Of a stretch of DNA of 64,000 bases, positions 10,843 through 53,694 are shown one piece after another. The notes beneath the pieces are model-generated. The model saw only the letters and a program-made list of their open reading frames with translations, was not told the DNA's origin and did not search any database. This DNA comes from Patescibacteria group bacterium. GTDB taxonomy: Bacteria; Patescibacteriota; Patescibacteriia; Buchananbacterales; SURF-54. A program made the translations under genes and the position numbers. The stretch covers positions 121,089 to 185,088 of the forward strand of contig JAHIRB010000007.1 of NCBI GenBank assembly GCA_018818885.1, in the 5' to 3' direction. Each line of letters begins with the position of its first letter. Position 1 is the first letter of the stretch.

Positions 10843-11920
10843 AGAGCTTTAAATATTTTTTTGATACTTCCTGCCAATCATTACTTTTAGCTAGCTCATA
10901 ACCATTTTGCCCTAGTTTTATAGCAAGTGCTTTATCAGACAAAATTTCATCAATAGCATCTGCTGTAGCATTAACGTCGTCTGGGGGCACTACAAGGCCA
11001 TTTTGGCTATCTTTTACTACATCTATTACACCACCAGCAGCAGAGGCTACGATAGGTATCTTGCACGCACCTGCTTCTAAATAAACAAGTCCAAACCCTT
11101 CAAACTTATTTTCTTTGATAACCTTAGGGGTTAACACAAAGATATCGGCTTCACTGTATAACTTTAATAATTCTTGATCAGATACTTTCTCAATAAATCT
11201 GACATTATCTTTAAGATCTGACTTTTCAACTATATTTCTTAAATGATAATAATAATTTTTATCTGATTGATTGCCAACTATTGTATATGACAAATCAGGA
11301 TACTTCGACTTTAACTTCGCGATTGCTTTGATGGAAATATCAAAACCTTTTCTATTTTTTAATGCCCCTACGCTTAAGATATTTTTTTTATGATCAGAAG
11401 TATTTTCTTCTTTTATATTTTTGTTGAATTTTTCAAAATCTACTCCATTATTTATTACTACTGTATTATCTAATTTAATTCTTTTTAAAATTTCGCTTTG
11501 TGTAAAACTACTTACACAAATAATCTTTTTTGCTTTTTTGTAAAATCCTCTAACTAAATATTTATAAAATTTGTGATCTAAAGATGAAACAGCATAGGTG
11601 CCGTGAGCTGTTAAAAAATATGGTTTTGTTTTTATGGTTGAAAAAATTAAAAACCTTGGTAGGTCTGTGCAAAAATGCACTACATCACAATTCTTTGCGT
11701 GACTTCTTACAATTTTACGAAACTCCAAAAATGACCTTAAGTCTTTTTTTAGATTTAAATTAGGTGCATTGATAAAGGTGACGTTACTTAATGCTTCATT
11801 ATGATCTGGCGAAATAATTGTAACATTATGATTTTGGGAATACTCATTAATCAATCCTAAACAATACCTTCCCTGTCCATCTTTTTCTGAAAGTGTTTTT
11901 GTAATTAATAATATCTTCAT
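10823..11920 (-). CDS. Glycosyltransferase family 4 (GT-B)
   Basis: EGFGLVYLEAGACKIPIVASAAGG motif typical of GT4. Confidence 0.7.
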   Translation of the reverse strand: MKILLITKTLSEKDGQGRYCLGLINEYSQNHNVTIISPDHNEALSNVTFINAPNLNLKKDLRSFLEFRKIVRSHAKNCDVVHFCTDLPRFLIFSTIKTKPYFLTAHGTYAVSSLDHKFYKYLVRGFYKKAKKIICVSSFTQSEILKRIKLDNTVVINNGVDFEKFNKNIKEENTSDHKKNILSVGALKNRKGFDISIKAIAKLKSKYPDLSYTIVGNQSDKNYYYHLRNIVEKSDLKDNVRFIEKVSDQELLKLYSEADIFVLTPKVIKENKFEGFGLVYLEAGACKIPIVASAAGGVIDVVKDSQNGLVVPPDDVNATADAIDEILSDKALAIKLGQNGYELAKSNDWQEVSKKYLKLYESFTD

Positions 11921-13269
11921 TTTTTCTTAACTAAATGAATCAAAAATTTTGGATTTAAAAAATATGCTTTTCCATACTTTTTTTTATACTTATAATGCCT
12001 AAGTACCATAAGCGCTCTTTTGGGACTATATCTAACTCCAATCCTGCCTGCATATTTTTCGATATTCTCCCAGCTAAATTTCTTATCTGGATTTAGTTCT
12101 TTTAGTTTTTGATAAAGCTTTGTACCAGGGTACGGAATAGCTGGATTGAAATTTTTGACCTTTAGATCGTGGTCTAATATAAAATTAACTGTTTCTTGAA
12201 TCGTTTCTTTGTCTTCTCCAGGACAATTGATTAAAACGTAATAACCCACATCAATCTTGTTTTCTCTTAATATATATATTGCTTGTTTAAGATCTTTTTG
12301 TGTAGTTTTTTTATTGATGTTTTCTAAAATTTGATCTGATGCTGATTCTAGACCAATATTAATTTTAAAGCATCCAGCTTTTTTTATTTTTTCAATTATA
12401 TCTTGATTTCTGACGATATCTGTGGCTCTGGCATTACAACCCCAACTAATCTTGATTTCGTTATTAATTAATAAATCGCTAATTTTTTCCACCCGAGGTA
12501 TGTCAACTAAATATTCCCAATCTTGAAAATAAATTGATTTAATACCAAAATTTATTATCAGATACTCAATTTCAATGAGTACTCGTTCTGGACTTTGGCT
12601 GATATAATTACCTTCTGACATTGCTTTAAGGCAAAACGTACATGAATAAGGGCAACCTCGTGAAGTCATCATAATAGAAAAAGGATCTTTAAAGCCTGAC
12701 GCATGATATTTTTCCATTGGCAATAATTCGTATGCTGGTAAAGGCAATGCATCTAAATCGTTTATTCTTCCTGCTTGAGAGTTGTGAATTATTTTTTTAT
12801 CTTGTTTAAAGGATATACCTTTGACATCAACTAACTGACCTTTTGCAGATAAATTGTCGACAGTTTCCTCCACAATTTTTTCTGGCTCACCCTTAACCAC
12901 AATATCAGCTTTAGACTTATTGAAAATCCAGTCAGGATCCACTGTGCCATGGCTCCCTGTGATTATCTTGTGCTTAGCTTTTGTAGCATCTAAAATTTTA
13001 AAAATATTATTAATATGAGAATTAGGACACTCCCACCTATCTATTGGCGTAGTTGTTAAAATTAAAACTTCTGACTCAAATTCATTAATAGAATCAATAG
13101 TTTTTTGTACAGTATAATTTAAAACATTAGCATCTAAAAATCTGATCTCGTGACCCTTATCCTGCAGAATTGCTGCAATCGTAGCTAAAGAAAGAGGCTG
13201 ACGTGCGCGTACGTTCATGACTGACCTTCTTTCTATGTTAAAATTTGGATTTAAGATAAATATCTTCAT
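11917..13269 (-). CDS. Cobalamin-binding radical SAM enzyme
   Basis: 450 aa. TSRGCPYSCTFCLK motif. Confidence 0.85.
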   Translation of the reverse strand: MKIFILNPNFNIERRSVMNVRARQPLSLATIAAILQDKGHEIRFLDANVLNYTVQKTIDSINEFESEVLILTTTPIDRWECPNSHINNIFKILDATKAKHKIITGSHGTVDPDWIFNKSKADIVVKGEPEKIVEETVDNLSAKGQLVDVKGISFKQDKKIIHNSQAGRINDLDALPLPAYELLPMEKYHASGFKDPFSIMMTSRGCPYSCTFCLKAMSEGNYISQSPERVLIEIEYLIINFGIKSIYFQDWEYLVDIPRVEKISDLLINNEIKISWGCNARATDIVRNQDIIEKIKKAGCFKINIGLESASDQILENINKKTTQKDLKQAIYILRENKIDVGYYVLINCPGEDKETIQETVNFILDHDLKVKNFNPAIPYPGTKLYQKLKELNPDKKFSWENIEKYAGRIGVRYSPKRALMVLRHYKYKKKYGKAYFLNPKFLIHLVKKK

Positions 13270-29461: not shown

Positions 29462-32400
29462 TTATGAGGTGATTGCAGCACTAGAAGTTGCTTGTAATTT
29501 ACCACCGTTTTTCTTAGGCAACAAGTATCCATTGGTCCATTGAAGGGTTCTGGATGCTGTTGTAGATGATAAATTTTGTGTGACTGTTAGGTCACCCCAG
29601 ATAAAGTCTGCTTCACCTGTGCTAGCCTCTAAACCAGCAGTGGCATCATCAAGCTGTAGCATTGCTGCTGAATTTGGAATAACATCTGCAGCAGCTCCGT
29701 CACCAAGTAATGACACGCTAATAGATCCGTCGCCAGCTGAACAACTCTTATTGTCGTCGTTAGAGCTTGAACAATCTACTGTAGCTCTAAGAGTAAATGT
29801 TGTTTCAGTACCAGCAGCAACTCTATAAGGGACTACATCGTCTCTATTTGAATCAGGAGCTGTTCCGTCATCAGTAAAGAGGAATGATGCTATACCTTGA
29901 CCGCTTAAGTCACTAGCACCTGAATTTGGATATAAATCCCAAGTGGTAGTAGCAGCTACTGTTTCAGTTCCATCATAGAGATAAGGAGAAGAAACTGTAG
30001 AAACGGATGTTGCGAACAAGAAGCTTAACTTGTACAAGGCAATGTCACCTGCACTATCAGCTCTTACTGTTAATTTGTACAAATCGGTAACAGCTTGTCC
30101 AGAAGGCATACTTCCAGCAATTCCTGTGGTTTGTTCGTCTTCTGGTGTGATTGTAGGCACACTCTTGTAGACATAGTAGGAATTGAATGTTGGTACTTGT
30201 CCAAGAGTTACATCAGTACCTGATTCAGCACCTTTTGCATTTACATCTCCAACAGCATTAATCTTTAGCTGGAATCCTTGGCCAGAACTTCCCTTTGATC
30301 CGTTCTTTGCATCAACGTTAGATGTGTCTACTTTAAAGGTGTAGTCAGTACTTACGCTGTGTGGAACTACCAATGGATTACTAGTCATTTCTAGTAATTG
30401 AGTTACATTGGTTCCATCAGTAGCAGATGGCGTTCTTTGTTTAACTAATGTACTTCCATCATACAAGTATAACGAATCAATTTGATCCCAACCGCCAGAA
30501 TTAACTGCAGCGGCAGTAACATAGATAGATTCTATGTTAATGTCTTCGTACATTGCATCTGCTGTCATAACACCTACAGTAATACCATCAGTATTTCTTG
30601 GTAGTAATCCTGATTTAGGATTTGCAGCAGCTTTAACTAGTTCTAAGGTTCCAACTGCTACAATTGTTTGTGCAGTACCATGGCTCTGGATATAAGTTGG
30701 AGTAACGGTATTTCCAGTTGATGCGCCAGTAGCACTAACTGCGCCGTCTGCAATACCCATTTGGAATATGTCATCAGCTGCAGCGGAAGAATCAACATTT
30801 GCCTTACCTGTTAAGGTAACTTGTGTTCCTTTTGTAACAACTAATGTTTCCGACAAAGTATGAGTGGAAGTTGCAGGATTGGCATTACCTGCTAAGCCAG
30901 AAGTAGCGTCACTAGTAATTTCTAACAAATCATCACCATTGTAAAGTTCAATGTTTGATAACAAGTTAGTAAAACCAGTTGTTGAATCTACACGAACACC
31001 AATTTGTGAGACTCTAATATCTTCTGAAGATGCAGAAGCATCTAAGACGATATTAACAAAAGTATGTCCCAAAGTTCCGGCTACAATGGTTTGAACAATT
31101 GGATCTGGTGTAATGCTTACAGTTAAAGTGCCTGCTTTTACAGTATTGATAACTGATGACTGAACAGTAGCAGGTGTAGCAGTAACGGAATCTCCACTGA
31201 CTTCACCAGTTGCTGTAATCTGAGCAGGTACAACTTGCACTTGTATAGTGTCATTAAGATCAATATCAGTATTTACATCACCTTTAACAGTGTAAATGTT
31301 TTCTCCTACTGGAACTGTAATAGTATCAGTAGTGGTAGCACTTGCGTGATATACAGTTGTTGATTCAACAGTTTCGGTAGTACCTAGATCTTGTGGTCCA
31401 GCTACAACATTACCATCTGGATCGTAAATAGTTAGATTGGTAATATCTGTAGTACTTGAACCACTACCAGCAGTAGCTTGGGTTAATTTCACAATCCAAC
31501 CAATTGCTGTGATTTCTATTGGTTCACCTTTGGCAGTAAGCTTAAATGAACCTAATGTTTCTTGAGTTGAACCTTCACCAATATTTATTGTGCCAGTAGC
31601 ACTTGGAGCAACTTTTAATGTTCCTTGGCCAATGGTGTGTGCAGTACCATTAATTACAGGAGATGCTGCATTAGCACCACTGCCTGCAGTTAATGTAACG
31701 TAAACTGAATGATCTGCATCCCAAACTAAAATATCAGTAAAGTTTTTGATGTGTAAGTCTATGGTTCGAGTTGTTCCACCTGCAGCATCACCTCTGGCCA
31801 TATAAGATCTATTTTGTCCAGAAGTAATTGTTGGTTCAGATCCTTCAGCAAATGAATGGAAAACCTCTTTATTATCCATAGCAGATGTTTGCAACACTGC
31901 ACCATTTTGATCAACTAAGTCTATATTTTCTACATCAGAATCACCTGCAGAACCGTTTTGTGTCCATTTAATCTGTTTAACCTTTAACCCTGATGGGTTT
32001 GTGCTACTAGAACTGGAATTAGTAATCTTAACTTCTGTGAAATTAACATTTTCTTTTCCAATTTCTGGTGCACTGTCAGTTGATGGATTAGATGGGCCAG
32101 TACCTAAAGTACCAGCAGCAATAGTAACAGTTGCATTTAAGTTCTGGTAGTTACCAGTAATTGGCAAGGTACCAATTAACGAAGCACCAGCTTTTAAGGT
32201 CATGGATGCTAATGTTAGTGATGGAACTTCTCCAGCATAGCTAGCCATAAGTGCAAGTGTTGTCATGTTACCTGTTAAAGCCAATCTTTTAGTAGAACCA
32301 GCAGTAACTGTTACATCATCGTTCAAGGTTGATTGATGAGTAGCATTCAAACTTTTGTTAAGTCCAATTTGCTGGTTTGTTGTTCTGTCGATAACAGCGA

Positions 32401-33166
32401 TAGATGCGAAAGCACCGTCTTGTGCAACAGCACCGGTTCTTTCTATTACCATTGAATCAATGGTGATATCGCCATCGCTGGAAGCAGTACAATCAACATA
32501 AGTGAATGGGAATCTAGCTGCACCTGCTAAGGCAAGGCCACTAGCTGGTGTGTCTGCAGCTAAAGAACATGTTAATGATGTTCCAGAGCCTGACATAGAT
32601 AAATTCTTATCATCATTTATGCTGGTAGCGGCTGCTTTTACAGCATCGACGTCAAAGGCTGAAGCAGCTCCAATATTATCACCTGTGCCATAGTTTCCAA
32701 CATTAGAAACTACTACAGGTATGATCATACTTTCCCAATTAGCACCATATAGTGCTTCTGCTATTTCGGCAGAACCAATTTTACGTAGATTTCCACCGGC
32801 ATCAACAGCGTAAACTGCTGAACTAAATACTACCCATGGTACGTCGTTTGTTACTGTTTGAACCAATTTAACACCTGGTTTTGCAGTAACGTTTCCACCG
32901 ATTGGATAACTGTCAATTTCAGCATCACTCAAGGTCATGACTGAATCAAAGTTATCATACCAAGTAAAAAATTCTCGGTCAGCTGGGAAAGTGTACAATT
33001 TACCATCAGCGCCTAAGTAGAATACAGCAGATAAACCTGCTTTCTTAACCACATCGCCTGATTCTGCAGCAACTACGCTGAGAGGCATTGCGAATAGGCC
33101 AATTGACCATATAATTGTGGTCAATACAACGCTAACAGTAAAGGCTTTCTTAATAAATTTCGACAT
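29462..33166 (-). CDS. Large secreted Thr/Ser/Gly/Ala-rich cell-surface protein (S-layer/adhesin-like), 1234 aa
   Basis: N-terminal signal peptide (MSKFIKKAFTVSVVLTTIIWSIGLFAMPLSVVAAES). Low-complexity beta-rich repeats and many N-x-S/T sequons. GC-richer codon usage, which follows from Ala/Gly/Thr content. Confidence 0.7.
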   Translation of the reverse strand: MSKFIKKAFTVSVVLTTIIWSIGLFAMPLSVVAAESGDVVKKAGLSAVFYLGADGKLYTFPADREFFTWYDNFDSVMTLSDAEIDSYPIGGNVTAKPGVKLVQTVTNDVPWVVFSSAVYAVDAGGNLRKIGSAEIAEALYGANWESMIIPVVVSNVGNYGTGDNIGAASAFDVDAVKAAATSINDDKNLSMSGSGTSLTCSLAADTPASGLALAGAARFPFTYVDCTASSDGDITIDSMVIERTGAVAQDGAFASIAVIDRTTNQQIGLNKSLNATHQSTLNDDVTVTAGSTKRLALTGNMTTLALMASYAGEVPSLTLASMTLKAGASLIGTLPITGNYQNLNATVTIAAGTLGTGPSNPSTDSAPEIGKENVNFTEVKITNSSSSSTNPSGLKVKQIKWTQNGSAGDSDVENIDLVDQNGAVLQTSAMDNKEVFHSFAEGSEPTITSGQNRSYMARGDAAGGTTRTIDLHIKNFTDILVWDADHSVYVTLTAGSGANAASPVINGTAHTIGQGTLKVAPSATGTINIGEGSTQETLGSFKLTAKGEPIEITAIGWIVKLTQATAGSGSSTTDITNLTIYDPDGNVVAGPQDLGTTETVESTTVYHASATTTDTITVPVGENIYTVKGDVNTDIDLNDTIQVQVVPAQITATGEVSGDSVTATPATVQSSVINTVKAGTLTVSITPDPIVQTIVAGTLGHTFVNIVLDASASSEDIRVSQIGVRVDSTTGFTNLLSNIELYNGDDLLEITSDATSGLAGNANPATSTHTLSETLVVTKGTQVTLTGKANVDSSAAADDIFQMGIADGAVSATGASTGNTVTPTYIQSHGTAQTIVAVGTLELVKAAANPKSGLLPRNTDGITVGVMTADAMYEDINIESIYVTAAAVNSGGWDQIDSLYLYDGSTLVKQRTPSATDGTNVTQLLEMTSNPLVVPHSVSTDYTFKVDTSNVDAKNGSKGSSGQGFQLKINAVGDVNAKGAESGTDVTLGQVPTFNSYYVYKSVPTITPEDEQTTGIAGSMPSGQAVTDLYKLTVRADSAGDIALYKLSFLFATSVSTVSSPYLYDGTETVAATTTWDLYPNSGASDLSGQGIASFLFTDDGTAPDSNRDDVVPYRVAAGTETTFTLRATVDCSSSNDDNKSCSAGDGSISVSLLGDGAAADVIPNSAAMLQLDDATAGLEASTGEADFIWGDLTVTQNLSSTTASRTLQWTNGYLLPKKNGGKLQATSSAAITS

Positions 33167-33630: not shown

Positions 33631-34779
33631 CTATTCAATAATATCCTCTGTTGTTTCTAGTAATGTTTCTTGCGTTGCATTAATTGTGCTGGTATTTGAT
33701 TGAATAGAAACTTGTTCAACTTTGTTTTCTACATTAAAATCTGAAACTTCCTCACTTTCTTCTGTGTTAGTATCATCATTTTCTTCTAAGTTTACATCTT
33801 CTTGATTTGATGTAGCTTCTTCTTCATCAATTGCTTGGTTTTGTTCTGTTATCAATTGCTCAACTAAAGTCTGGCCTTGAGCAATTTGCACTGCTGTTAA
33901 ATCAAATTCTCCATTGGCTAGTGAATTTTTAGCATCATCTAGTGCTTTTTGAGCTGCTTCTAGAATCTCGCCATCCTCTAATTCTTTTATTTTTTGTTCT
34001 AAATTATTAATTTTACTTTGTATTAATTCAATTACTTCTTCTTCCTCTTGAGTTTCACCCTGTGAATAATTATTTAAAGCAATCCTAAAAGCTGATTCTG
34101 ATGTATTTTCTGCTGTATTTACTGCATCATCCATGGCTTTTTCTACCTCTTTTTTAACATTATCGGGTAATTTATCCTTATTTTTATTTAATGTTTTAGC
34201 AAATTCTGTTGCTTGAGAATCTATTGCTCTAGCTAAAGAAAATACTGATTTCTTTTGTTGGTCTAGATTATTAATATGATCGTTTAAAGATTCTACGTCT
34301 GATTTGAATCTTTTTGTAATTTCTGAAATTGTATCTTTTTGTAAGTCTTCTGGTCTTAAAATTGCCATTTTATCTAGTTCGTCTACTCTGTTTTTAGCAA
34401 ATTCCATTCTTAGTTCTGCTTTTTTCTCGTTATCTCTTATAATTGAAACCTGGGTTTTTTCCATAGCAATTTTAAGGTCGTAAAGATTATCTCCAGGCAA
34501 ACTATAAAAGGCAGCATTAACTACTAAACTGGATCCTACAAATAAACCTAAAACCAACAATATTGCTACTGTTGGTTGAAAAACATGAAATTTAGCAGCT
34601 TGAGCAGTTGCAGAAAAGAACCCAAAAAATGAGGTTGCTGGCTGGTATGCACGCTGATCTTGAGAAATCTCAGATATTAAAATATCCCGGAAAGAATCCT
34701 TCCACTCCTTGCGGGGCTGTATTTGGTTCAATAATTTAATTTTATTGACCATTTTTTGATTGTGAGTTTTTTGACTCAT
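33631..34779 (-). CDS. Putative membrane-anchored anti-sigma factor (single TM, acidic coiled-coil ectodomain)
   Basis: Overlaps the ECF sigma gene by 38 bp. Cytoplasmic N-terminus, TM helix (VAILLVLGLFVGSSLVV), acidic coiled-coil C-terminus. Confidence 0.45.
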   Translation of the reverse strand: MSQKTHNQKMVNKIKLLNQIQPRKEWKDSFRDILISEISQDQRAYQPATSFFGFFSATAQAAKFHVFQPTVAILLVLGLFVGSSLVVNAAFYSLPGDNLYDLKIAMEKTQVSIIRDNEKKAELRMEFAKNRVDELDKMAILRPEDLQKDTISEITKRFKSDVESLNDHINNLDQQKKSVFSLARAIDSQATEFAKTLNKNKDKLPDNVKKEVEKAMDDAVNTAENTSESAFRIALNNYSQGETQEEEEVIELIQSKINNLEQKIKELEDGEILEAAQKALDDAKNSLANGEFDLTAVQIAQGQTLVEQLITEQNQAIDEEEATSNQEDVNLEENDDTNTEESEEVSDFNVENKVEQVSIQSNTSTINATQETLLETTEDIIE

Positions 34780-35371
34780 CGATAGTATCTTTTAGTACTT
34801 TTAGTGCTCTGTGAATTAGAACTCTGGTAGCACCATTAGATTTATCTAGTATTTTAGATATTTCTTTATTTGATAGTTCATCAACGAATTTCAGAATTAA
34901 TACTTCGCGAAATTCATCTTTTAATTTACGTAAATGTGCTTCAATGTTTTCAATTTCACTACTAATTGCCACTTTTTCTAGAAAACTTTGCTGTCTTGAA
35001 TCTTCTACTAATTTTAATGATTCTGTATCTGCTAAAATCTCTCTTTGACTGGTTCTGTAGTAATCTATCACTATATTTCGTGCTGATTGGTATAATAAGG
35101 CGTTGAGATTGGAAACTTCGCGTTTATCTGGCTCGTTCATGTATTGCCAGGTTTTCAAGAATACTTCTGCACATAGATCCTCAGCTGTTTCGTGGTTAGA
35201 AACCTTAAAAAAAATAAAGCGATATATTTTATCTACGTACAAATCGTAAATTTCCCCAAAGGCTTCGGAATCGCCGTTTTGAGCCCTTACAAGAAGTAAC
35301 TTTTGCTTAAATATAGATGCATTCATTGTATTAGACGAAGTATCGTTAATTTTGTTACAGAATAGGTTCAA
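34742..35371 (-). CDS. RNA polymerase sigma-70 family ECF sigma factor
   Basis: Region 2 (DLYVDKIYRFIFFKV...AEDLCAEVFLKTW) and region 4 HTH (LSNKEISKILDKSNGATRVLIHRALKVLK). Confidence 0.8.
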   Translation of the reverse strand: MNLFCNKINDTSSNTMNASIFKQKLLLVRAQNGDSEAFGEIYDLYVDKIYRFIFFKVSNHETAEDLCAEVFLKTWQYMNEPDKREVSNLNALLYQSARNIVIDYYRTSQREILADTESLKLVEDSRQQSFLEKVAISSEIENIEAHLRKLKDEFREVLILKFVDELSNKEISKILDKSNGATRVLIHRALKVLKDTIDESKNSQSKNGQ

Positions 35372-35623: not shown

Positions 35624-35899
35624 ATGCCTAATAACAAAACAATTAGACTTTCTGTTACTGAAGCGGCTAGAATATTTGGTGTTGACCAAAAGACTATCAG
35701 AAGAGCAATAAAAAACCAAGATTTGCGCTATATTGTTGTTATGGGTAGATATAAGATTAATTTTGAAAGCTTACTAAAATGGTCACAGAAAAAACCTCAA
35801 ACAAAAAATAAGCTTGAAAATGATGGAATTGGTAAATATGTGGATAAATGGAAGATTAGAAGTACTCATTATAGCCCTAATCCTCCCAAAAAAGACTAA
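35624..35899 (+). CDS. Small helix-turn-helix DNA-binding protein (excisionase/MerR-like HTH_17)
   Basis: LSVTEAARIFGVDQKTIRRAIKNQDLRY HTH; 91 aa. Immediately upstream of the ncRNA-like region and the RT. Confidence 0.6.
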   Translation: MPNNKTIRLSVTEAARIFGVDQKTIRRAIKNQDLRYIVVMGRYKINFESLLKWSQKKPQTKNKLENDGIGKYVDKWKIRSTHYSPNPPKKD

Positions 35900-36284
35900 T
35901 CGCCGAAGGCTCTCCTCGCTCGACGCCAGCCTCGACGTCTAGCCGGGAAAGTTAAAGCGGGCGTCATCGCCGAGGCAGGCTAAATAACTAAATAAACTAA
36001 AATGACATCTTGTATGTTGTTTTTTGTTTGACTAAATGAATGTGAAGTTTTAAACTAATAATAAGCTGCTTTTATTGTCTTGCTTGATCTGCTTGTCTTA
36101 CAGGCAAGACCGGTCATCTGTGAACGGATGGCTGAATAAACGTAGGCGCTTGAGATGGCCTCGTATGTTTCCAGTTGATTGAAACCACTTAGTAAGCGCG
36201 TTAAACAACGAACGCACTCACAGAGCAGCCCGGGGGGAAACACATTCCCCCCATTTTTTTTGACCTTTAACAAGGAGGCAATCA
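35900..36284 (+). ncRNA. Candidate retron non-coding RNA (msr/msd) region
   Basis: 385 bp with no ORF on the plus strand, GC-richer than the genome, several stem-loops (CGACGCC/GGCGTC; GTCTT-acaggc-AAGAC; GGGGGGAA-acaca-TTCCCCCC plus T-run). Sits directly 5' of a retron-type RT on the same strand. Boundaries and a1/a2 repeats not resolved. Confidence 0.35.
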
Positions 36285-37316
36285 ATGCAGAAAAGCCGAA
36301 AGGATGCAGTGGAAATTCTAGCAAATCTTATGAGATTGCAATCAGATTTTATTTTTGATGCATTGAAAAATAGAAACTATCAACAAATTTTGATTCCTAA
36401 AAGATCTGGCGATGTAAGAAAATTGCACGCACCCGGTGAAGAGTTAAAACTTGTACAGGAAGTAATCCTACAATTTCTTTACCGATGGAAAGTCGATGCA
36501 CGTCAGTTTGGTTTCGTGTTAGGCGGTTCACCAATCAGGAATGCAAAATATCACATTAGAAATGAATTTTACGTTCCGCACTGGGTTCTAAAGCTTGATT
36601 TGGAAAACGCGTTTCCATCAGTTACTTCAACTGTTCTTAGGAAGGAGTACACCCGAGTATTTAACCCAGAAACATTCAAGGAGCTATCAGGAATAGACGA
36701 AAAACAATTTACTGCATTCATCCAACTGATGCTTGATTTAACAACTTACCGAGAGCGACTACCTCAAGGGTCGCCTTGTTCTCCCTACTTGTTGAATTTG
36801 GTATTAGTCTGGACAGGTGTAACAAAAGGTGTTTTGGAGTATTGTGAAAAAAAAGGACTACGTGCTTCCTTGTATGGTGATGATTTCACTATATCTGCCA
36901 AAACAAGTAACATGTGGTTTTCTAAGACATTCTTTAGAAAAATCAATTCAGCGGTTTCACGTAGTGGGTGTCTCAGACTAAATCACGACAAGACTCATCT
37001 AATATGCAGCAGAAACTCCGCGCCAATAATTACTGGCGTAAAAATTACCGAAAGCCACGACAATGGAGCAAAATTAACTCTCACCCAGAGCACACTAAAT
37101 CATTGGAGAGGAGTGATTCATCGAGTTACAGAAATTCTCTACTGGAATAATCGCCTACCAAGGCTGGAACAAGACGGCGTAACATTCAACCAAGCACTCG
37201 GTTATGTCAATTGGATTGAAGATGTCTATAGAGAAAGTGAGGTTCCGCTATCGGTTAGAAAACCAATTAAAAGTTTTAAAGTGCAATCATCAAGATTCGA
37301 TCGTAGGAGAGGTTAG
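36285..37316 (+). CDS. Retron-type reverse transcriptase
   Basis: RT motifs ILIPKRSGDVRKLHAP (1), LDLENAF (2), LPQGSPCSPYLLNLVL (QGxxxSP), LYGDDFTI (YxDD), LNHDKTHL. Retron hallmarks FGFVLGGSPIRNAKYH (NAxxH) and IITGVKI (xTG). AAGGAGG RBS at 36271-36277. No maturase or endonuclease domain. Confidence 0.8.
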   Translation: MQKSRKDAVEILANLMRLQSDFIFDALKNRNYQQILIPKRSGDVRKLHAPGEELKLVQEVILQFLYRWKVDARQFGFVLGGSPIRNAKYHIRNEFYVPHWVLKLDLENAFPSVTSTVLRKEYTRVFNPETFKELSGIDEKQFTAFIQLMLDLTTYRERLPQGSPCSPYLLNLVLVWTGVTKGVLEYCEKKGLRASLYGDDFTISAKTSNMWFSKTFFRKINSAVSRSGCLRLNHDKTHLICSRNSAPIITGVKITESHDNGAKLTLTQSTLNHWRGVIHRVTEILYWNNRLPRLEQDGVTFNQALGYVNWIEDVYRESEVPLSVRKPIKSFKVQSSRFDRRRG

Positions 37317-45250: not shown

Positions 45251-46108
45251 TTATTTAAATTCTTCTAGAAATTCTGAAATATCACCTGACGTTACACCTT
45301 GTTCTACAAGTGACTTATCTTTTATTTGAGGTAATTGTGATTCATAACTTGATTGATCTCCTACATACAATACGCCGATAGGAATTTTTTCTCCCCACTC
45401 ACCTGCTTTAATTAACGCAGCATCTTTATCTTTTGTATTCCAATTTTCATCTTCTAATTTGTATATACGTTCTTTGTACCATTGAAAAGTATTTACTTTA
45501 TTCCAAGTAATGCATGGCTGTAACACATCAACTAAAGAAAATCCTTTGTGTTCTATTGCTTGCTTAAATATTTCTTTACAATGTTTGATATCACCGGCAA
45601 AAGTTCTGGCAACAAAACTAGCACCTTGAGGGATAGCTACTTGTAATGGATGGAATGGCTGTTCAAGCTGGCCTGAAGGCGTAGTTTTTGTTTCCATACC
45701 TGTATCTGTTGTTGGTGATGCTTGGCCAGTTGTTAAGCCGTATATCTGATTATTATGTATAAGCAAAGTGATATCAAAATTCATTCTACAACCATGCAAA
45801 AAATGGTTACCACCTTCACCATAACCTCCGCCATCACCAGAAGCTGCAATTACTTTTAAATTGTGATTTGCCATTTTAATAGCCTCTGCAACAGGAACAG
45901 TTCTACCATGCAAGCTATGAAAACCATATAAATTATGCCAGTTAACTCCATTACCACAACAACCAATATCAAAAACCATTGCTATTTGGTGTGGTTCTAA
46001 ACCTAGTTCTGAAAGTGATTCCTTAAAACCTTGCCACAAACCAAAATTACCACAACCAGGACACCAGGTTGGAGTTACGTGAGTATTGAAGTCTTGTGGT
46101 TTAGCCAT
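45251..46108 (-). CDS. porB: 2-oxoacid:ferredoxin oxidoreductase beta subunit (TPP-binding; pyruvate/2-ketoisovalerate type)
   Basis: WCPGCGNFG N-terminal motif and TPP-binding GDGG region. Confidence 0.85.
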   Translation of the reverse strand: MAKPQDFNTHVTPTWCPGCGNFGLWQGFKESLSELGLEPHQIAMVFDIGCCGNGVNWHNLYGFHSLHGRTVPVAEAIKMANHNLKVIAASGDGGGYGEGGNHFLHGCRMNFDITLLIHNNQIYGLTTGQASPTTDTGMETKTTPSGQLEQPFHPLQVAIPQGASFVARTFAGDIKHCKEIFKQAIEHKGFSLVDVLQPCITWNKVNTFQWYKERIYKLEDENWNTKDKDAALIKAGEWGEKIPIGVLYVGDQSSYESQLPQIKDKSLVEQGVTSGDISEFLEEFK

Positions 46109-46109
46109 A

Positions 46110-47885
46110 TTATTTTAATTTTTCTATTAACTCTTCTGGGAAAAACGGGATACCGGTGTATTTTAGTATTTTGTTATCAAATTCAATATTTAAATTCTCT
46201 TTAAGCAAATCTCCGAATTGACCTGTTTTGTTTGATTCAATCAACCACAATTTCTTACTACCTTTGATTAGTTTTTTAACTTCTTCTGCATCAATTGGCG
46301 CAACTGCTGTAAAGTGAATAAAATTAAACTTATCTGCTGGTAGCGCTTTCATAGCTTCTAAAACTGCTCCCTTGACTGATCCCCAGCCGATTAGAGTGGT
46401 TTTTGCACTCTTTGAGCCATAGAATCTTGGCTTGGGTAATTCCTTAATAATGCTTGGAAGCTTCTTATATCGTCTATCTTGTTGCTTAATTCTCATTTCT
46501 GCATCAAAGGCTTCTATAGTAAAACCGTGTTCGTCGTGTTCATCTGAATTAGCAATATGCACTCCTCCTTTCATGCCAGGAAAAGCACGTGAAGATATTC
46601 CATCTGCAGTTAGCTCGTATCTTTTATAATCTTTTATTTTGTCTAGTTGTTCTTGTGTTAAAATTTTGCCTCGATCAATTTTGACATTTGTTGTGACTAA
46701 CTCATCAACTGATTCATGTCCTTCGGAAATAAACTTATCTAGCAAGATTACTACTGGCACTTGATATTTTTCTGCTAAGTTAAATGCCCATGGTGTTAAA
46801 AACATTGCTTCTTTAGCATCACCAGGAGCTAATACGATTCGGATGAAATCTCCATGACCAACATTAGCAATAAATCTTAAATCTTCTTGTCCACCCCATG
46901 TTGGTAACCCTGTTGCTGGGCCTGGTCTTTGAGATTCAGCGATAACAACAGGAGTTTCTGTCAAAGCTGCCAAAGCCACACCTTCTGCCATCAAAGCAAA
47001 ACCTCCACCAGATGTACAGGTCATAGACCTTACCCCTGCATAACCTGCTCCTATTGCCATGTGAATAGCAGAAATTTCGTCTTCTGGTTGTTTTACTATC
47101 ATACCAGACCGCTCTGCCCACTTAGCTGCGTAATGTAAAATTGACGACGCAGGTGTCATTGGATAAGCTGACATGAACTTACAGCCAGCTGCAATGCTGC
47201 CCAAAACTACTGCTTCGTTGGCAGTGATAACTACTTTATCTTTTCCGCCAGAGGCGGGTCCGCCTTTGGCGGATTTCTCTGGCTTGGTTTTTAAATCGTA
47301 TTTAAATTCTTTGGGATTACTATTTTGTGTCGCGTAATCAAAACCCGTTTTGATTGCTTTAATATTCATATCTATTACTTCTTTACCTTTACTGGCAAAA
47401 ATATCTCGCATCATACTGTTTAGTAGCTCTATGTTAAAATCAAGCATTGCCGCTACTGCGCCAATTGCAATTGAATTGGTAGTAATTGGTTTTAAGGTAG
47501 CTTCTTTGACAATTGTTGCTAAAGGCAATGGATATAGTTTGATATTTTTATCTTTTGGCAGTTCGCTTTGCTCTATTTTGAATTTATCAGAATCATAAAA
47601 AACCACTGCACCAGAAACAAGTTCATTTTTGCAGTGATCAAAAGAAAGCTTTGAAAGACATATCATTAAATTAACGTCGTAGTAGGCAGCATAAACAGGT
47701 TCTGGCCCAACGCTAATTTGATAGGTAACAAGCCCGCCTCTAATTCGAGATGGGTATTCTGAATAATCATAAGTATAAAGACCTCCGCGCGCGCAAGCCT
47801 TAGCAAAGGTTAAACCAGCAACTTGTTGGCCTTGTCCTGCTTCGCCTCCGATCTTTAACGTAAATATGTTGGAATTTTTCGGCAT
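46110..47885 (-). CDS. porA: 2-oxoacid:ferredoxin oxidoreductase alpha subunit with N-terminal gamma-like domain
   Basis: 591 aa. Gamma-domain-like N-terminus (IGGEAGQGQQVAGLTFAKA) fused to the alpha domain. Adjacent to the beta subunit. Confidence 0.85.
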   Translation of the reverse strand: MPKNSNIFTLKIGGEAGQGQQVAGLTFAKACARGGLYTYDYSEYPSRIRGGLVTYQISVGPEPVYAAYYDVNLMICLSKLSFDHCKNELVSGAVVFYDSDKFKIEQSELPKDKNIKLYPLPLATIVKEATLKPITTNSIAIGAVAAMLDFNIELLNSMMRDIFASKGKEVIDMNIKAIKTGFDYATQNSNPKEFKYDLKTKPEKSAKGGPASGGKDKVVITANEAVVLGSIAAGCKFMSAYPMTPASSILHYAAKWAERSGMIVKQPEDEISAIHMAIGAGYAGVRSMTCTSGGGFALMAEGVALAALTETPVVIAESQRPGPATGLPTWGGQEDLRFIANVGHGDFIRIVLAPGDAKEAMFLTPWAFNLAEKYQVPVVILLDKFISEGHESVDELVTTNVKIDRGKILTQEQLDKIKDYKRYELTADGISSRAFPGMKGGVHIANSDEHDEHGFTIEAFDAEMRIKQQDRRYKKLPSIIKELPKPRFYGSKSAKTTLIGWGSVKGAVLEAMKALPADKFNFIHFTAVAPIDAEEVKKLIKGSKKLWLIESNKTGQFGDLLKENLNIEFDNKILKYTGIPFFPEELIEKLK

Positions 47886-47943
47886 AAAATTAAAACTTGG
47901 TGATCTTTGTGATCATGGTGTTATTTTAGCTAAAACAACTAAA

Positions 47944-48117
47944 TTATAGGTCTTGTGGTTTAACTGTAGTACGCCTGTTGCTCTTGCAACGATAAGTTGC
48001 AACTTCAAGGAGTTGTACTACTTTTTCGTTTAAAGCCCCCAAAGTATCACTAGAAGTGTGACAGCCTTTTGATTTAATATAAGCCTTAACTTTTGAGCCC
48101 ACTACCATTGTATCCAT
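47944..48117 (-). CDS. Histone-fold (HMf-like / DUF1931-type) small DNA-binding protein, 57 aa, missed by the ORF track
   Basis: Manual translation: MDTMVVGSKVKAYIKSKGCHTSSDTLGALNEKVVQLLEVATYRCKSNRRTTVKPQDL. Aligns to archaeal HMfB-type histone-fold landmarks (...SDDA...L...LEE...A...A...GRKTIKAEDI). Confidence 0.55.
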   Translation of the reverse strand: MDTMVVGSKVKAYIKSKGCHTSSDTLGALNEKVVQLLEVATYRCKSNRRTTVKPQDL

Positions 48118-48160
48118 ACGTTTGGTAGTTAATTGTTAGCTCAATCTTATTATAACAAAA

Positions 48161-49570
48161 TCATCGATTTTGGGCAAAAAATTTGTTTATATATGATATT
48201 AACAATAGTACTGCAATTGGAATAATTTGCATATTTGCTCTTATCATTGCGTTGAGGCTTTGCGATTTATCAGTAAACATAAATACAAAATTGTATAGTG
48301 CAAAAAGCAATAAAAAAGCAAAAGTCATTTTTTGTAAAGATTGACTATGATAAATATCTTTAATCTTTAATATCATTATTATAAACAAAGCTATCAATAA
48401 AAAACTAAAATGACTTCTAAAAAGTAATAGCGAAAACCATCGAGTGAATTCACTAACCTGAAATATCATATTAAAACTACTTGAATCCCCGCTTAAAACA
48501 TCAAGATCATATAACCAACGAAACAATAACCATGGAGATACAATAAACAGTGATGTTAATAAATATTTAATTGACGTCTTAAATCTTAGTTGCTTACTAA
48601 TTACTAAAAAGATCATAAATATTATTAGTGACGGCAACACCAAGGCAAAGCCTTCATTCTTTGTCCAAATGCTAAATGCCAAACCAAATGCAGAGATATA
48701 TAAATATGGTTTATCTCTTGTTTGCAGATACATAAATAAAGCGCTGTAGGCCAAGAATATGAATGAAGTGATTTCTAAATCAGCATAGGCAATTCGAGAA
48801 TGGAGAACAAGAAACGGCAAACTAGCTAACAAGTATGTACTAATCAATTTTATTGTGCGAGAAAATATCTTTGGCAATGATTGATAGAACAAAAATATCA
48901 AAGCAATATAAAAAACTAAGGAATATAAATTAATTACATTTTCGTTCCATTTTGTAAGTAGTGACGCTTGCCATACTTTAAGTAGAGGATCATTTAAAGG
49001 ATAACTCTTTATTCCTCCACCCAAAAAAAATTCGTTTGGCTTGTTCATTGGCAACTGATGTTGTGTGTAAATAACTTTCGGACGAAGATTCCAATTATTC
49101 CAGGCATCAAAATCGTAGGTTGGATTATGAATAATTTGATAAGCACCTAAAACTGACTGGGATAGAACATAAATGACAAGCAAAGTAAGTAATATTAAAT
49201 TTAATTTTTTCCACTTTATTATTTCTTTTATTTTCTTAACCTCTTTATAACATTTCTTAAAACTAAATTCACTTTTAAATTTAAAATGAATAATTTCTAG
49301 CAAAATTATTGGCGTAATCATCATTGGTAACAAAGTTCTACCAACTAAATTTCCGCCAGTCCACGTATATATAAAAATTATTGTTGTCATCAATCCAATA
49401 CCGATCAGAAATGATACGGCAAGCTTGTACAAGTATGCCAAATTGTCATGTTTATCTAATAACGAAACAACTACCCAGCCCAAATACCAAGGGACTAAAT
49501 AACTAATTGTAATTATTAGTATATCAATCATATTCTTTAAAAATAAATGATGTTGAGTTAAATGATGCAA
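48161..49570 (-). CDS. Polytopic integral membrane protein (possible GT-C-like glycosyltransferase)
   Basis: 469 aa, at least 10 TM helices; no confident family assignment. Confidence 0.4.
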   Translation of the reverse strand: MHHLTQHHLFLKNMIDILIITISYLVPWYLGWVVVSLLDKHDNLAYLYKLAVSFLIGIGLMTTIIFIYTWTGGNLVGRTLLPMMITPIILLEIIHFKFKSEFSFKKCYKEVKKIKEIIKWKKLNLILLTLLVIYVLSQSVLGAYQIIHNPTYDFDAWNNWNLRPKVIYTQHQLPMNKPNEFFLGGGIKSYPLNDPLLKVWQASLLTKWNENVINLYSLVFYIALIFLFYQSLPKIFSRTIKLISTYLLASLPFLVLHSRIAYADLEITSFIFLAYSALFMYLQTRDKPYLYISAFGLAFSIWTKNEGFALVLPSLIIFMIFLVISKQLRFKTSIKYLLTSLFIVSPWLLFRWLYDLDVLSGDSSSFNMIFQVSEFTRWFSLLLFRSHFSFLLIALFIIMILKIKDIYHSQSLQKMTFAFLLLFALYNFVFMFTDKSQSLNAMIRANMQIIPIAVLLLISYINKFFAQNR

Positions 49571-52471: not shown

Positions 52472-52753
52472 TTACAAAAGTGAGTCTTTAGCAGCTTTAG
52501 CAACTCTGAATTTTACAACAGTTTTTGCAGGAATAGAAATTTCTTCGCCAGTAGCTGGGTTTCTTCCCATTCTTGCTTTTCGGTTTACTTTTACAAGTTT
52601 ACCAACACCTGGAATGACAAATTCGCCATTACCTTTTACTTCACTAAAAGCAAGTTCTACGAACTTGTCTAGAAAGCTTTCTACGTCTTTTTTGCTCATT
52701 TCAGTTGCTTCAGCCATAGCTGTAAGCATCTGAGATTTGGTCATTTTAGCCAT
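52472..52753 (-). CDS. hup: HU-family DNA-binding protein
   Basis: GRNPATGEEISIPAKTVVKFR arm motif; 93 aa. Confidence 0.85.
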   Translation of the reverse strand: MAKMTKSQMLTAMAEATEMSKKDVESFLDKFVELAFSEVKGNGEFVIPGVGKLVKVNRKARMGRNPATGEEISIPAKTVVKFRVAKAAKDSLL

Positions 52754-53343: not shown

Positions 53344-53694
53344 TTAATTCATACTATTAGATAGTCCAGTGAGCATTCTGCCGATTTCTCTTGCTTTTTC
53401 TGTTAGATCTTCTCCAATATCCTTTTCTATATAACCAAGTTCATAACTTAATAGAAAATAGTATTTTAGTTCCTCTAAAGAAGTCTGTGCAATAACTAAA
53501 AAATGCCGGCGATCTTTCACGGTTTTTCTCTTACTGCCTTCTGCGATATTAGCAGGGATAGAAATTGCTGACCTTCTCATTTGACTCGTAAGTGCAAACA
53601 TCTCTGATTTTGGAAACTCATCAGTTACTTGATAGACATATTTAACTAATTGATGCGCCTTCAGCCACACTTTTAATTTCTTAAAGTTTTCCAT
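53344..53694 (-). CDS. Four-helix-bundle protein (23S rRNA intervening-sequence protein family)
   Basis: LKVWLKAHQLVKYVY...ALTSQMRRSAISIPANIAEG signature of the IVS four-helix-bundle family. Confidence 0.75.
   Translation of the reverse strand: MENFKKLKVWLKAHQLVKYVYQVTDEFPKSEMFALTSQMRRSAISIPANIAEGSKRKTVKDRRHFLVIAQTSLEELKYYFLLSYELGYIEKDIGEDLTEKAREIGRMLTGLSNSMN

What the first reader, a model, noticed from the sequence alone, without database searches (positions are those of the whole stretch)
47944..48117. Unannotated 57-aa histone-fold (HMf-like) protein gene in a bacterial-type genome that also encodes HU
The minus-strand ORF MDTMVVGSKVKAYIKSKGCHTSSDTLGALNEKVVQLLEVATYRCKSNRRTTVKPQDL falls under the 60-aa cutoff of the ORF track. 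It aligns position-for-position with the histone-fold consensus of archaeal HMfB-type histones: basic helix-1 region, S-D-D/T-A loop, LEE helix, and a C-terminal basic R-K/R-T-[IV]-K-x-[ED]D motif. It also matches, as far as I recall them, the recently characterised single-fold bacterial histones (DUF1931 type). It lies 43 bp downstream of a large membrane-protein gene and upstream of porA. An HU gene is also present at 52472-52753.
Basis: partly seen in the sequence, partly recalled or inferred. Interest (0 to 1): 0.7.

Follow-up and report, generated by a model that had tools for sequence, protein, structure and literature searches.

The report
Bacterial histone gene in a Patescibacterium
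The 57-codon ORF is a real, strongly conserved gene for a bacterial histone of the "face-to-face" type. It is 58% identical to Leptospira HLp, whose tetramer wraps about 60 bp of DNA, and it sits in a Patescibacteria (CPR) genome that also encodes HU, so it is a good catch but a new member of a family described in 2023-2025.

Summary
ORF 47944-48117(-) encodes the quoted 57-aa protein, 43 bp after a PMT_2 membrane glycosyltransferase gene and 58 bp before a porA/porB-like pair. HU lies at 52472-52753.

It is a real gene. There are 129 close homologues and 435 loci among GTDB species genomes, pN is far below pS in every pair tested, and four independent assemblies call the same gene.

It is a histone-fold protein of the alpha3-truncated, face-to-face (FtF) type:
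- Sequence match to HLp of Leptospira perolatii (PDB 9QT0) gives E=4e-15, or 7e-28 with a profile.
- The AlphaFold model shows alpha1, a long alpha2 and a one-turn alpha3. The only strong fold matches are HLp, HBb and HTkC (TM 0.75-0.81).
- All five FtF signature residues are present (R43, N47, R49, T51, D56) and are invariant or nearly so in the family.
- All 120 homologues end at the same C-terminal position.

It is not HMf-type and not a DUF1931 member. Tetramer formation and DNA wrapping are inferred, not shown.

GenBank already lists the gene as a hypothetical protein. One Patescibacteria histone of this type is in a 2023 supplementary table. What appears new is a CPR clade that keeps the order histone-porA-porB across nine lineages.

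The parts
47944..48117 (-). Coding sequence of a 57-aa, 6.3-kDa, pI 9.6 alpha3-truncated (face-to-face type) bacterial histone. Predicted alpha1 is residues 7-16, L1 17-24, alpha2 25-46, L2 47-53 and a one-turn alpha3 54-56. The protein ends at L57.
   Evidence: ORF; HLp E=4e-15 single sequence, 7e-28 profile; AF2 model, pLDDT 78; Foldseek TM 0.78-0.81 to HLp; invariant S8 K9 K15 R43 N47 T51 V52 D56; 18 of 24 HLp functional residues identical; pN far below pS.
48149..48177 (-). Sigma-70-type promoter-like element, TTGCCC-17 nt-TATAAT with a TG extended -10. It lies 31 nt upstream of the ATG and overlaps the last codons of the upstream gene. No Shine-Dalgarno motif follows, which is normal for this genome.
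   Evidence: 10 of 12 match, the best site in the region, though the site count is not above shuffles; the blocks ATTTTTGC and TTTGTTATAAT are identical and in register in the closest relative L087, whose upstream gene is different and on the other strand; 49 of 55 long ORFs lack an SD core. Function is inferred, not shown.
46110..47885 (-). porA/korA-like alpha subunit (POR + POR_N) of a two-subunit 2-oxoacid:ferredoxin oxidoreductase. It starts 58 bp downstream on the same strand with no terminator-like site between. It is a conserved neighbour of the histone gene. A functional link is not shown.
   Evidence: Pfam; no terminator; same order in nine lineages.
45251..46108 (-). porB/korB-like beta subunit (TPP_enzyme_C + PFO_beta_C), the third gene of the conserved order histone-porA-porB.
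52472..52753 (-). HU gene (93 aa), a second nucleoid-associated protein encoded 4.4 kb away. This is context, not part of the histone gene.
   Evidence: PF00216, E=5e-25; every relative that carries an informative organism name is from a Patescibacteria lineage.

Best explanation
The ORF encodes a small basic nucleoid protein of the histone fold, in the face-to-face (FtF) subgroup of alpha3-truncated histones.

Proposed mechanism, by homology with HLp (Leptospira perolatii) and HTkC (Thermococcus kodakarensis):
- Two chains form a head-to-tail dimer by antiparallel crossing of the alpha2 helices. The core residues are V10, I14, L29, V33 and L36.
- Two dimers close into a ring-shaped tetramer through both dimer-dimer interfaces. 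R43 contacts the free C-terminal carboxylate (L57) of the opposite dimer, and N47 and S46 bond to R49.
- The R49-D56 'RD clamp' fixes loop L2.
- DNA is bound without sequence specificity through backbone contacts from S8-K9 (paired ends of helices), K11 and K15 (alpha1), T21 (L1) and T50-T51 (L2 beta-bridge). About 60 bp wraps around the tetramer.

In this Patescibacterium the protein would act as a chromatin protein alongside HU. It is probably transcribed from its own extended -10 promoter and possibly read through into porAB.

Shown here: the gene is real and under purifying selection, it has the alpha3-truncated histone fold, it carries the FtF signature residues, and it is closest to HLp. 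Inferred: tetramer formation, DNA binding and wrapping, abundance, and expression.
For: Sequence and fold:
- HLp (9QT0-2) matches at E=4e-15 over residues 2-56 with 58% ungapped identity.
- With a 51-sequence profile: HLp 7e-28, HBb 9e-12, HTkC 8e-9, then H2B 0.02 and NF-YB about 0.7.
- The AF2 model has pLDDT 78 with H7-16, H25-46 and a one-turn helix at 54-56.
- In Foldseek against the PDB, HLp ranks first (TM 0.78-0.81), followed by HBb and HTkC (TM 0.75-0.77). Nothing else exceeds probability 0.66.

Signature residues:
- The FtF positions of the published HMM logo (R48, N52, R54, T56, D61; PMC11390915) correspond to R43, N47, R49, T51 and D56. These are invariant in 119-120 of 120 homologues.
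- 18 of 24 residues that the HLp crystal structures assign to dimer, tetramer, RD clamp or DNA contact are identical.
- HTkC R45, whose R45A change turns the tetramer into a dimer, aligns with R43. Its partner is the C-terminal carboxylate, and all 120 homologues end exactly at position 57.
- HBb, the dimeric type, has S and D at the R43 and N47 positions.

Organism and gene:
- The protein has pI 9.57.
- The window is bacterial and Patescibacterial: HU relatives with informative names are all CPR lineages, there is an ECF sigma factor and a PG-binding protein, and NCBI labels it so.
- Purifying selection is shown, and the promoter-like element is conserved in L087.
Against: - No experiment or expression data exist for this protein or for any CPR homologue.
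- The oligomeric state could not be modelled, because the predictor accepts only single chains.
- Foldseek rmsd values are high (6-7 A), as expected when a monomer is modelled outside its dimer.
- Some HLp contact residues differ: A13->G7, G29->S23, T61->Q55, L47->T41, M26->H20, L39->V33.
- The protein has no basic N-terminal tail, whereas most bacterial FtF histones do.
- HLp acts in a genome without HU. Here HU is present, so the histone may be a minor or conditional nucleoid protein.
- No family library names the protein: Pfam is below threshold, and NCBIfam and PHROGs give nothing.
Confidence: 0.8

Rival explanations
1. It is a histone of the 'bacterial dimer' type, like HBb of Bdellovibrio. 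It would stay a dimer and bend DNA rather than wrap it.
For: HBb is a significant relative (E=4e-4 with a single sequence, 9e-12 with the profile, TM about 0.76). Like HBb, this protein coexists with HU. The oligomeric state was not tested here.
Against: Bacterial dimer histones are defined by the lack of R48 and N52. This protein has both (R43, N47), invariant in its family, whereas HBb has S and D there. HLp scores 16 orders of magnitude better than HBb in the profile search. The L2 motif is R-T-T, not R-K-T.
Confidence: 0.1
2. It is a histone-fold protein that does not organise the nucleoid. It could be a local regulator or partner of the adjacent porAB genes, or a non-DNA-binding fold like the DUF1931 pseudodimers.
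For: The gene order histone-porA-porB is kept in nine lineages with porA identity 44-78% and GC 0.32-0.61. No terminator separates the genes in the window. HU is available as the general nucleoid protein. There is a weak sub-threshold DUF1931 hit. The published survey cautions that not every prokaryotic histone-fold protein is a global organiser.
Against: The DNA-contact residues of HLp are conserved and invariant (S8, K9, K11, K15, T21, T51), unlike DUF1931 proteins, which lack them. Homologues in Planctomycetota and other CPR (L086, L090, L091, L093) lack the porAB neighbour. Intergenic gaps reach 669 bp, so the linkage is not a tight operon.
Confidence: 0.07
3. The ORF is not native to this genome: a chance ORF, an assembly chimera, contamination from Planctomycetota or archaea, or phage or mobile-element cargo.
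For: The ORF is short. The family is patchy in bacteria and commonest in Planctomycetota. The Falkowbacteria copy lies between a GIY-YIG gene and a transposase gene.
Against: The same gene with the same neighbours is found in four independent assemblies, including a 200-kb contig. pN is far below pS. Gene GC (0.385) is close to the window GC (0.33). Synteny is shared with other CPR genomes. There are no relatives on 2.9 million viral contigs and no PHROG hit. The flanking genes are ordinary chromosomal genes.
Confidence: 0.02

Closest known systems
HLp, the face-to-face (FtF) alpha3 histone of Leptospira perolatii (PDB 9QT0/9QT1/9QT2; Hu et al. 2025, PMC12701072)
   Same: 58% identical over 55 ungapped residues. 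It has the same helix layout with a short alpha2 and a one-turn alpha3. It shares the tetramer residues (R49/S52/N53/R55 = R43/S46/N47/R49), the RD clamp (R55-D62 = R49-D56), the DNA contacts (S14, K15, K17, K21, T27, T56, T57 = S8, K9, K11, K15, T21, T50, T51) and a hydrophobic C-terminal residue.
   Different: There is no N-terminal tail (about 6 residues fewer). Six contact or core residues differ (G7, H20, S23, V33, T41, Q55). Cysteines occur at positions 19 and 44. The host encodes HU, whereas Leptospira does not. The gene neighbours are porAB rather than SMC/MAP/DUF350. Nothing has been tested experimentally.
HTkC, the archaeal FtF histone of Thermococcus kodakarensis (PDB 9F2C)
   Same: Tailless, with a truncated alpha3. 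The tetramer arginine R45 aligns with R43. Foldseek TM is 0.75 and the profile E-value is 8e-9.
   Different: Only about 32% identical. It has E rather than N at position 47, and R-K-T rather than R-T-T in L2. It coexists with nucleosomal histones, not with HU.
HBb (Bd0055), the bacterial dimer histone of Bdellovibrio bacteriovorus (PDB 8FVX, 8CMP, 9EZZ)
   Same: A single alpha3-truncated histone fold with the S-K motif at the start of alpha1 and an RD clamp. It coexists with HU. Identity is 37-38% and TM about 0.76.
   Different: HBb lacks the tetramer residues (S and D at positions 43 and 47), stays dimeric and bends DNA. It also has one extra residue in L1.
Nucleosomal archaeal histones (HMfB type, Pfam CBFD_NFYB_HMF)
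   Same: Histone fold, an R-x-T-x(4)-D loop L2 motif, and an S-D-D-like L1.
   Different: alpha2 is 4 residues shorter and alpha3 is one turn instead of about 10 residues. There is no Pfam hit, and hhalign probability is only 36%. The FtF ring closes both interfaces, so no hypernucleosome can form.
Patescibacteria group bacterium UBA6539 singlet histone, listed in Supplementary Table 1 of Hocher et al. 2023 (PMC10627809)
   Same: 59% identical, with the same two cysteine positions and the same C-terminal motif. This shows that CPR histones of this type are already catalogued.
   Different: It appears only as a table row. No text discusses CPR histones, their clade-level persistence or their gene context.

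Membership tests
alpha3-truncated histones (Schwab et al. 2024) | Histone fold: alpha1-L1-alpha2-L2-alpha3 | tested here: met
   The AF2 model has H7-16, H25-46 and H54-56. In Foldseek the only strong hits are HLp, HBb and HTkC, at TM 0.75-0.81.
alpha3-truncated histones (Schwab et al. 2024) | alpha3 of only 3-4 residues, and alpha2 4-5 residues shorter than in nucleosomal histones | tested here: met
   alpha3 is residues 54-56 and the chain ends at 57. There is a 4-residue gap in alpha2 against an HMf-type histone.
alpha3-truncated histones (Schwab et al. 2024) | R-x-T-x(4)-D motif (RD clamp plus L2 threonine) | tested here: met
   R49, T51 and D56 are present. They are invariant in 119, 120 and 120 of 120 homologues respectively.
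Face-to-face (FtF) histones | Dimer-dimer residues R48 and N52 of the FtF HMM (HLp R49/N53; HTkC R45) | tested here: met
   R43 and N47 are present at the right spacing and invariant in 120 of 120 homologues.
Face-to-face (FtF) histones | Free C-terminal carboxylate directly after the one-turn alpha3, the partner of the tetramer arginine | tested here: met
   The protein ends at L57, one residue after D56. No C-terminal extension occurs in any of the 120 homologues. The mechanism is from HTkC.
Face-to-face (FtF) histones | Conserved alpha1 lysine (HMM K16) and further surface lysines | tested here: met
   K11 is K in 116 of 120 homologues and R in the other 4. K9 and K15 are invariant.
Face-to-face (FtF) histones | Forms a closed ring tetramer. 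This quaternary structure is what defines the category. | not testable with these tools
   The structure predictor takes one chain only, and concatenated chains are not accepted. The tetramer is inferred from signature residues only.
Face-to-face (FtF) histones | Binds DNA without sequence specificity and wraps about 60 bp | not testable with these tools
   Seven of the nine HLp DNA-contact residues are identical.
Bacterial dimer histones (HBb type) | Lack of R48 and N52; R-K-T-x(3)-D motif; clusters with HBb | tested here: not met
   The protein has R43 and N47, and its L2 reads R-T-T. HLp scores 7e-28 against 9e-12 for HBb.
Nucleosomal/HMf-type histones (Pfam PF00808 CBFD_NFYB_HMF) | Match to the family model; alpha3 of about 10 residues | tested here: not met
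   No PF00808 hit even at E<=10. hhalign probability is 36% with gaps. alpha3 is one turn.
DUF1931 pseudodimeric histones (Pfam PF09123) | Score above the gathering threshold; two histone folds in one chain; DNA-binding residues absent | tested here: not met
   The score is 13.8 bits against a cut-off of 21.8, over 30 residues only. The protein is a single 57-aa fold, and its DNA-contact residues are present.
Phage histones (alpha3 subgroup) | Encoded on phage genomes | tested here: not met
   No PHROG hit. No relative on IMG/VR contigs. The neighbours are chromosomal genes.

The most novel reading that the evidence does not exclude
A clade of Patescibacteria has kept an FtF histone gene directly upstream of its 2-oxoacid:ferredoxin oxidoreductase genes through deep divergence (porA down to 44% identity, GC 0.32 to 0.61). 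This clade's histones are tailless and carry cysteines at positions 19 and 44, which in a histone-fold dimer would lie near the L1-L2 junction of opposite chains. The most novel reading not excluded is a functional coupling: the histone is co-transcribed with porAB, or its assembly or DNA binding responds to redox state through these cysteines. That would link chromatin compaction to central redox metabolism in ultra-small bacteria.
Probability: 0.07. Interest if true: 0.65.

Novelty: new member of a known kind. Interest (0 to 1): 0.4.

Why it matters
Histones occur in under 2% of bacterial genomes, and only two bacterial histones, HBb and HLp, have been characterised structurally and functionally. 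The published surveys name Spirochaetota, Planctomycetota, Bdellovibrionota and Myxococcota as the main bacterial FtF hosts. They do not discuss the Candidate Phyla Radiation, and a single CPR entry sits in a supplementary table.

This window shows a CPR genome that encodes an HLp-like histone together with HU. The related loci show the gene persisting across a CPR clade with a conserved neighbour. That gives a concrete, easily synthesised 57-aa candidate for asking how episymbiotic bacteria with very small genomes package DNA, and how a wrapping histone and HU share that task.

It does not change the picture of what bacterial histones are.

Tried and rejected
- Pfam, NCBIfam and PHROGs do not name the protein. 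The only result is a sub-threshold DUF1931 hit. The identification rests on PDB sequence and fold searches.
- A terminator scan found none between the histone gene and porA in the window. L087 has a weak hairpin there, so co-transcription remains open.
- Promoter-like site counts are not above shuffles. Only the conservation of the element in L087 gives it weight.
- A neighbour-joining tree on 53 positions places the CPR/tailless sequences in one region next to Planctomycetota sequences, but bootstrap support for CPR monophyly is 0-1%. Only the high-GC subgroup is supported, at 97%. The first tree script timed out. Single versus multiple acquisition cannot be decided.
- A tetramer could not be modelled with the single-chain predictor.
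- I looked for a second histone copy in the window by tblastn and by a six-frame HMM search and found none.
- I tested whether the reverse transcriptase at 36285-37316 belongs to a diversity-generating retroelement. No template/variable repeat of 40 bp or more lies within 29-39 kb.
- There are no rRNA, tRNA or Rfam matches in the window to place the organism. Taxonomy rests on the NCBI label and on HU relatives.
- The window's PMT_2 and 368-aa genes are shared only with L083, so the upstream neighbourhood is not generally conserved.

Full report
**Observation.** It starts 43 bp after the stop of a 469-aa membrane protein with a PMT_2 glycosyltransferase domain. It ends 58 bp before a 591-aa POR/POR_N protein, which is followed by a 285-aa TPP-binding beta subunit. 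Together these form a two-subunit 2-oxoacid:ferredoxin oxidoreductase. The ORF at 52472-52753 is HU (PF00216, E=5e-25). The window has 33% GC, no RNA genes, and genes almost all on the minus strand.

**Is it a gene?** A 57-codon ORF is not remarkable in AT-rich DNA, but several lines show this one is real.
- The identical protein is in GenBank as 'hypothetical protein KKA15_01285 [Patescibacteria group bacterium]'. So it is unnamed rather than unannotated.
- The gene is called with the same neighbours on four independently assembled contigs, the longest 200 kb.
- There are 129 homologues at E<=1e-3 in the 90%-clustered database and 435 confirmed loci among GTDB species representatives. A full HMM scan of 1.84 billion representatives finds 1,975 clusters at E<=1e-3 and 391 at E<=1e-10.
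- Orthologue pairs show much less nonsynonymous than synonymous change: pN/pS is 0.138/0.74 (window vs L087), 0/0.198 (L033 vs L037) and 0.052/0.755 (L030 vs L033).

**What is it?** The family libraries are silent. Pfam gives only a sub-threshold DUF1931 hit (13.8 bits against a cut-off of 21.8), and NCBIfam and PHROGs give nothing. The PDB sequence search is decisive.
- 9QT0/9QT1/9QT2 match at E=4e-15 over residues 2-56 without a gap, at 58% identity. The Bdellovibrio histone HBb (8FVX, 8CMP) matches at about 4e-4.
- 9QT0 is HLp of Leptospira perolatii. It is a face-to-face (FtF) alpha3 histone that forms a stable tetramer and wraps about 60 bp of DNA (PMC12701072).
- With a profile of 51 homologues the ranking is HLp 7e-28, HBb 9e-12, the archaeal FtF histone HTkC 8e-9, then eukaryotic H2B at 0.02 and NF-YB near 0.7.
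- An AlphaFold2 model built on that alignment (mean pLDDT 78) has alpha1 at 7-16, a long alpha2 at 25-46 and a single helical turn at 54-56. Foldseek against the PDB returns HLp (TM 0.78-0.81), HBb (0.75-0.77) and HTkC (0.75) as the only strong matches, followed by weak hits to eukaryotic histones.

**Subfamily.** Schwab et al. 2024 define alpha3 histones by a 3-4-residue alpha3 and an alpha2 that is 4-5 residues shorter than in nucleosomal histones. They define FtF histones by a ring tetramer whose conserved positions are R48, N52, R54, T56 and D61 of their HMM. Here the same spacing gives R43, N47, R49, T51 and D56.
- Across 120 homologues S8, K9, K15, R43, N47, T51, V52 and D56 are invariant, and R49 is present in 119.
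- Mapping the residues the HLp structures assign to function gives 18 of 24 identical. These include all four listed tetramer residues on one side of the interface, the RD clamp, and seven of the nine DNA contacts.
- HTkC R45, whose R45A mutation converts the tetramer into a dimer by losing a salt bridge to the C-terminal carboxylate of the opposite dimer, aligns with R43.
- Consistent with that mechanism, none of the 120 homologues extends beyond position 57.
- The dimeric HBb has S and D at positions 43 and 47, as the survey says of 'bacterial dimer' histones.
- Against an HMf-type archaeal histone, taken from the Hocher et al. supplement, hhalign gives only E=3.8e-4 and 36% probability. It needs a 1-residue and a 4-residue gap and covers no alpha3 helix.

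The protein is therefore an HLp-type FtF histone by every feature that sequence and monomer fold can test. It is not HMf-type, not HBb-type and not a DUF1931 pseudodimer. Its defining quaternary structure and its DNA binding remain inferred.

**Organism.** Every HU relative that carries an informative organism name is from a Patescibacteria lineage: Doudna-, Buchanan-, Falkow-, Uhr- or Parcubacteria. The window also holds an ECF sigma factor and a peptidoglycan-binding protein. This is a CPR bacterium, not a DPANN archaeon or a mis-binned planctomycete. Shine-Dalgarno motifs are absent from 49 of 55 long ORFs, so their absence before this ATG is normal.

**Expression signals.** The best promoter-like site in the region is TTGCCC-17-TATAAT with a TG extended -10, ending 31 nt before the ATG. 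Site counts are not above shuffles. However, the blocks ATTTTTGC and TTTGTTATAAT are identical and in register in the closest relative L087 (histone 81% identical), where the upstream gene is different and on the other strand. No terminator-like site lies between the histone gene and porA in the window.

**Context in relatives.** Most of the 80 best GTDB loci are Planctomycetota, and their proteins have lysine-rich N-terminal tails.
- The window belongs to a tailless subgroup that mostly carries cysteines at positions 19 and 44 (25 of 120).
- In nine distinct lineages of this subgroup the order histone-porA-porB is kept on one strand. These are the window, L087, L083, L092, L001, L002, L030, L033 and L037. 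Their porA identity to the window's porA is 44-78%, GC runs from 0.32 to 0.61, and gaps are 58-669 bp.
- Three of these are labelled Patescibacteria or Parcubacteria. Two are labelled Gammaproteobacteria and are probably mislabelled bins.
- Other members lack the linkage: L086, L090, L091, and the Falkowbacteria copy L093, which sits between a GIY-YIG gene and a transposase gene.
- A distance tree on 53 positions groups the tailless/CPR sequences near Planctomycetota sequences but without bootstrap support.
- No relatives occur on viral contigs, and there is no second copy in the window.

**Comparison with the literature.** The surveys list Spirochaetota, Planctomycetota, Bdellovibrionota and Myxococcota as the main bacterial FtF hosts and never mention Patescibacteria in the text. 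The supplementary files of Schwab et al. that are held here contain no CPR name. No paper in the searched library combines 'histone fold' with Patescibacteria, or 'bacterial histone' with Candidate Phyla Radiation. Hocher et al. 2023 do list one 'Patescibacteria group bacterium UBA6539' singlet in Supplementary Table 1. It is 59% identical to this protein and has the same cysteine positions.

Differences from HLp are the missing tail, six changed contact or core residues, coexistence with HU (Leptospira has none; Bdellovibrio has both), and the porAB rather than SMC/MAP neighbourhood.

**Verdict.** The family label should be 'face-to-face alpha3 bacterial histone (HLp-like)'. It is a new member of a known kind. 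The modestly new elements are clade-level persistence in CPR bacteria, coexistence with HU, and the conserved histone-porAB order. Confidence is about 0.97 that it is an expressed-type, selected histone-fold gene, and about 0.8 that it works as a DNA-wrapping FtF tetramer.

Noticed in passing
window 45251-48117; loci L001, L002, L030, L033, L037, L083, L087, L092: The gene order histone-porA-porB (two-subunit 2-oxoacid:ferredoxin oxidoreductase) is kept on one strand in nine divergent lineages. Their porA is 44-78% identical to the window's, GC runs from 0.32 to 0.61, and gaps are 58-669 bp. The order is absent from L086, L090, L091 and L093.
   Followed up: partly
window 47944-48117, residues C19 and C44; family alignment: The tailless CPR subgroup carries cysteines at positions 19 and 44 (25 of 120 homologues). 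The high-GC subgroup (L030, L033, L037) has L19, C44 and C55. Elsewhere these positions are M/L/F and T/A, so they may be simple packing positions. The distance between the two cysteines in the dimer could not be measured.
   Followed up: partly
window 35624-37316 (+): A 343-aa reverse transcriptase (RVT_1, E=1.5e-16) lies just downstream of a 91-aa HTH_17 protein, on the opposite strand to most genes. No template/variable repeat pair of 40 bp or more lies within 29-39 kb, so it is not an obvious diversity-generating retroelement. It may be a retron- or defence-type RT.
   Followed up: partly
window 29462-33166 (-): A 1234-aa ORF has no Pfam match at all. It sits next to a DUF5667 protein and an ECF sigma factor (33631-35371).
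   Followed up: no
window 1164-27210: A large glycosylation cluster. It contains four paralogous B12-binding radical SAM enzymes (1164-2582, 4333-5892, 9343-10842, 11917-13269), many GT4 glycosyltransferases, a second PMT_2 protein, a flippase-like Polysacc_synt protein and a UDP-glucose dehydrogenase.
   Followed up: no
window-wide; L083 about 3980-4000; L092 about 2240-2261: Shine-Dalgarno core motifs are missing upstream of 49 of 55 long ORFs in the window. The relatives L083 and L092 have a clear GGAGG before their histone ATG. SD usage therefore differs within this CPR clade.
   Followed up: partly
proteins P0121-P0124, P0126, P0131, P0140 (representative library): Many of the best-scoring relatives are 118-150-aa proteins with two tandem copies of this short histone fold, each copy with an R-x3-N-G-R-K-T motif. 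These are fused doublets distinct from DUF1931. Their hosts and contexts were not examined.
   Followed up: no
L093/L094 (Candidatus Falkowbacteria), about 4634-5702: The Falkowbacteria histone gene is flanked by a GIY-YIG nuclease gene and an rve_3 transposase fragment, which hints that this copy sits in a mobile context.
   Followed up: no
L001, L002, L043, L049 (GTDB records labelled Gammaproteobacteria): These MAG contigs carry the CPR-type tailless histone. L001 and L002 also carry the porAB synteny, and L049 (the same contig as L090) has the DUF6938 upstream gene also seen in L083. The taxonomic labels are probably wrong.
   Followed up: no
window 53344-53694 (-): A 116-aa protein matches the '23S rRNA-intervening sequence protein' / bAvd-like four-helix-bundle family. 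It lies about 16 kb from the reverse transcriptase, and no link between them was established.
   Followed up: no
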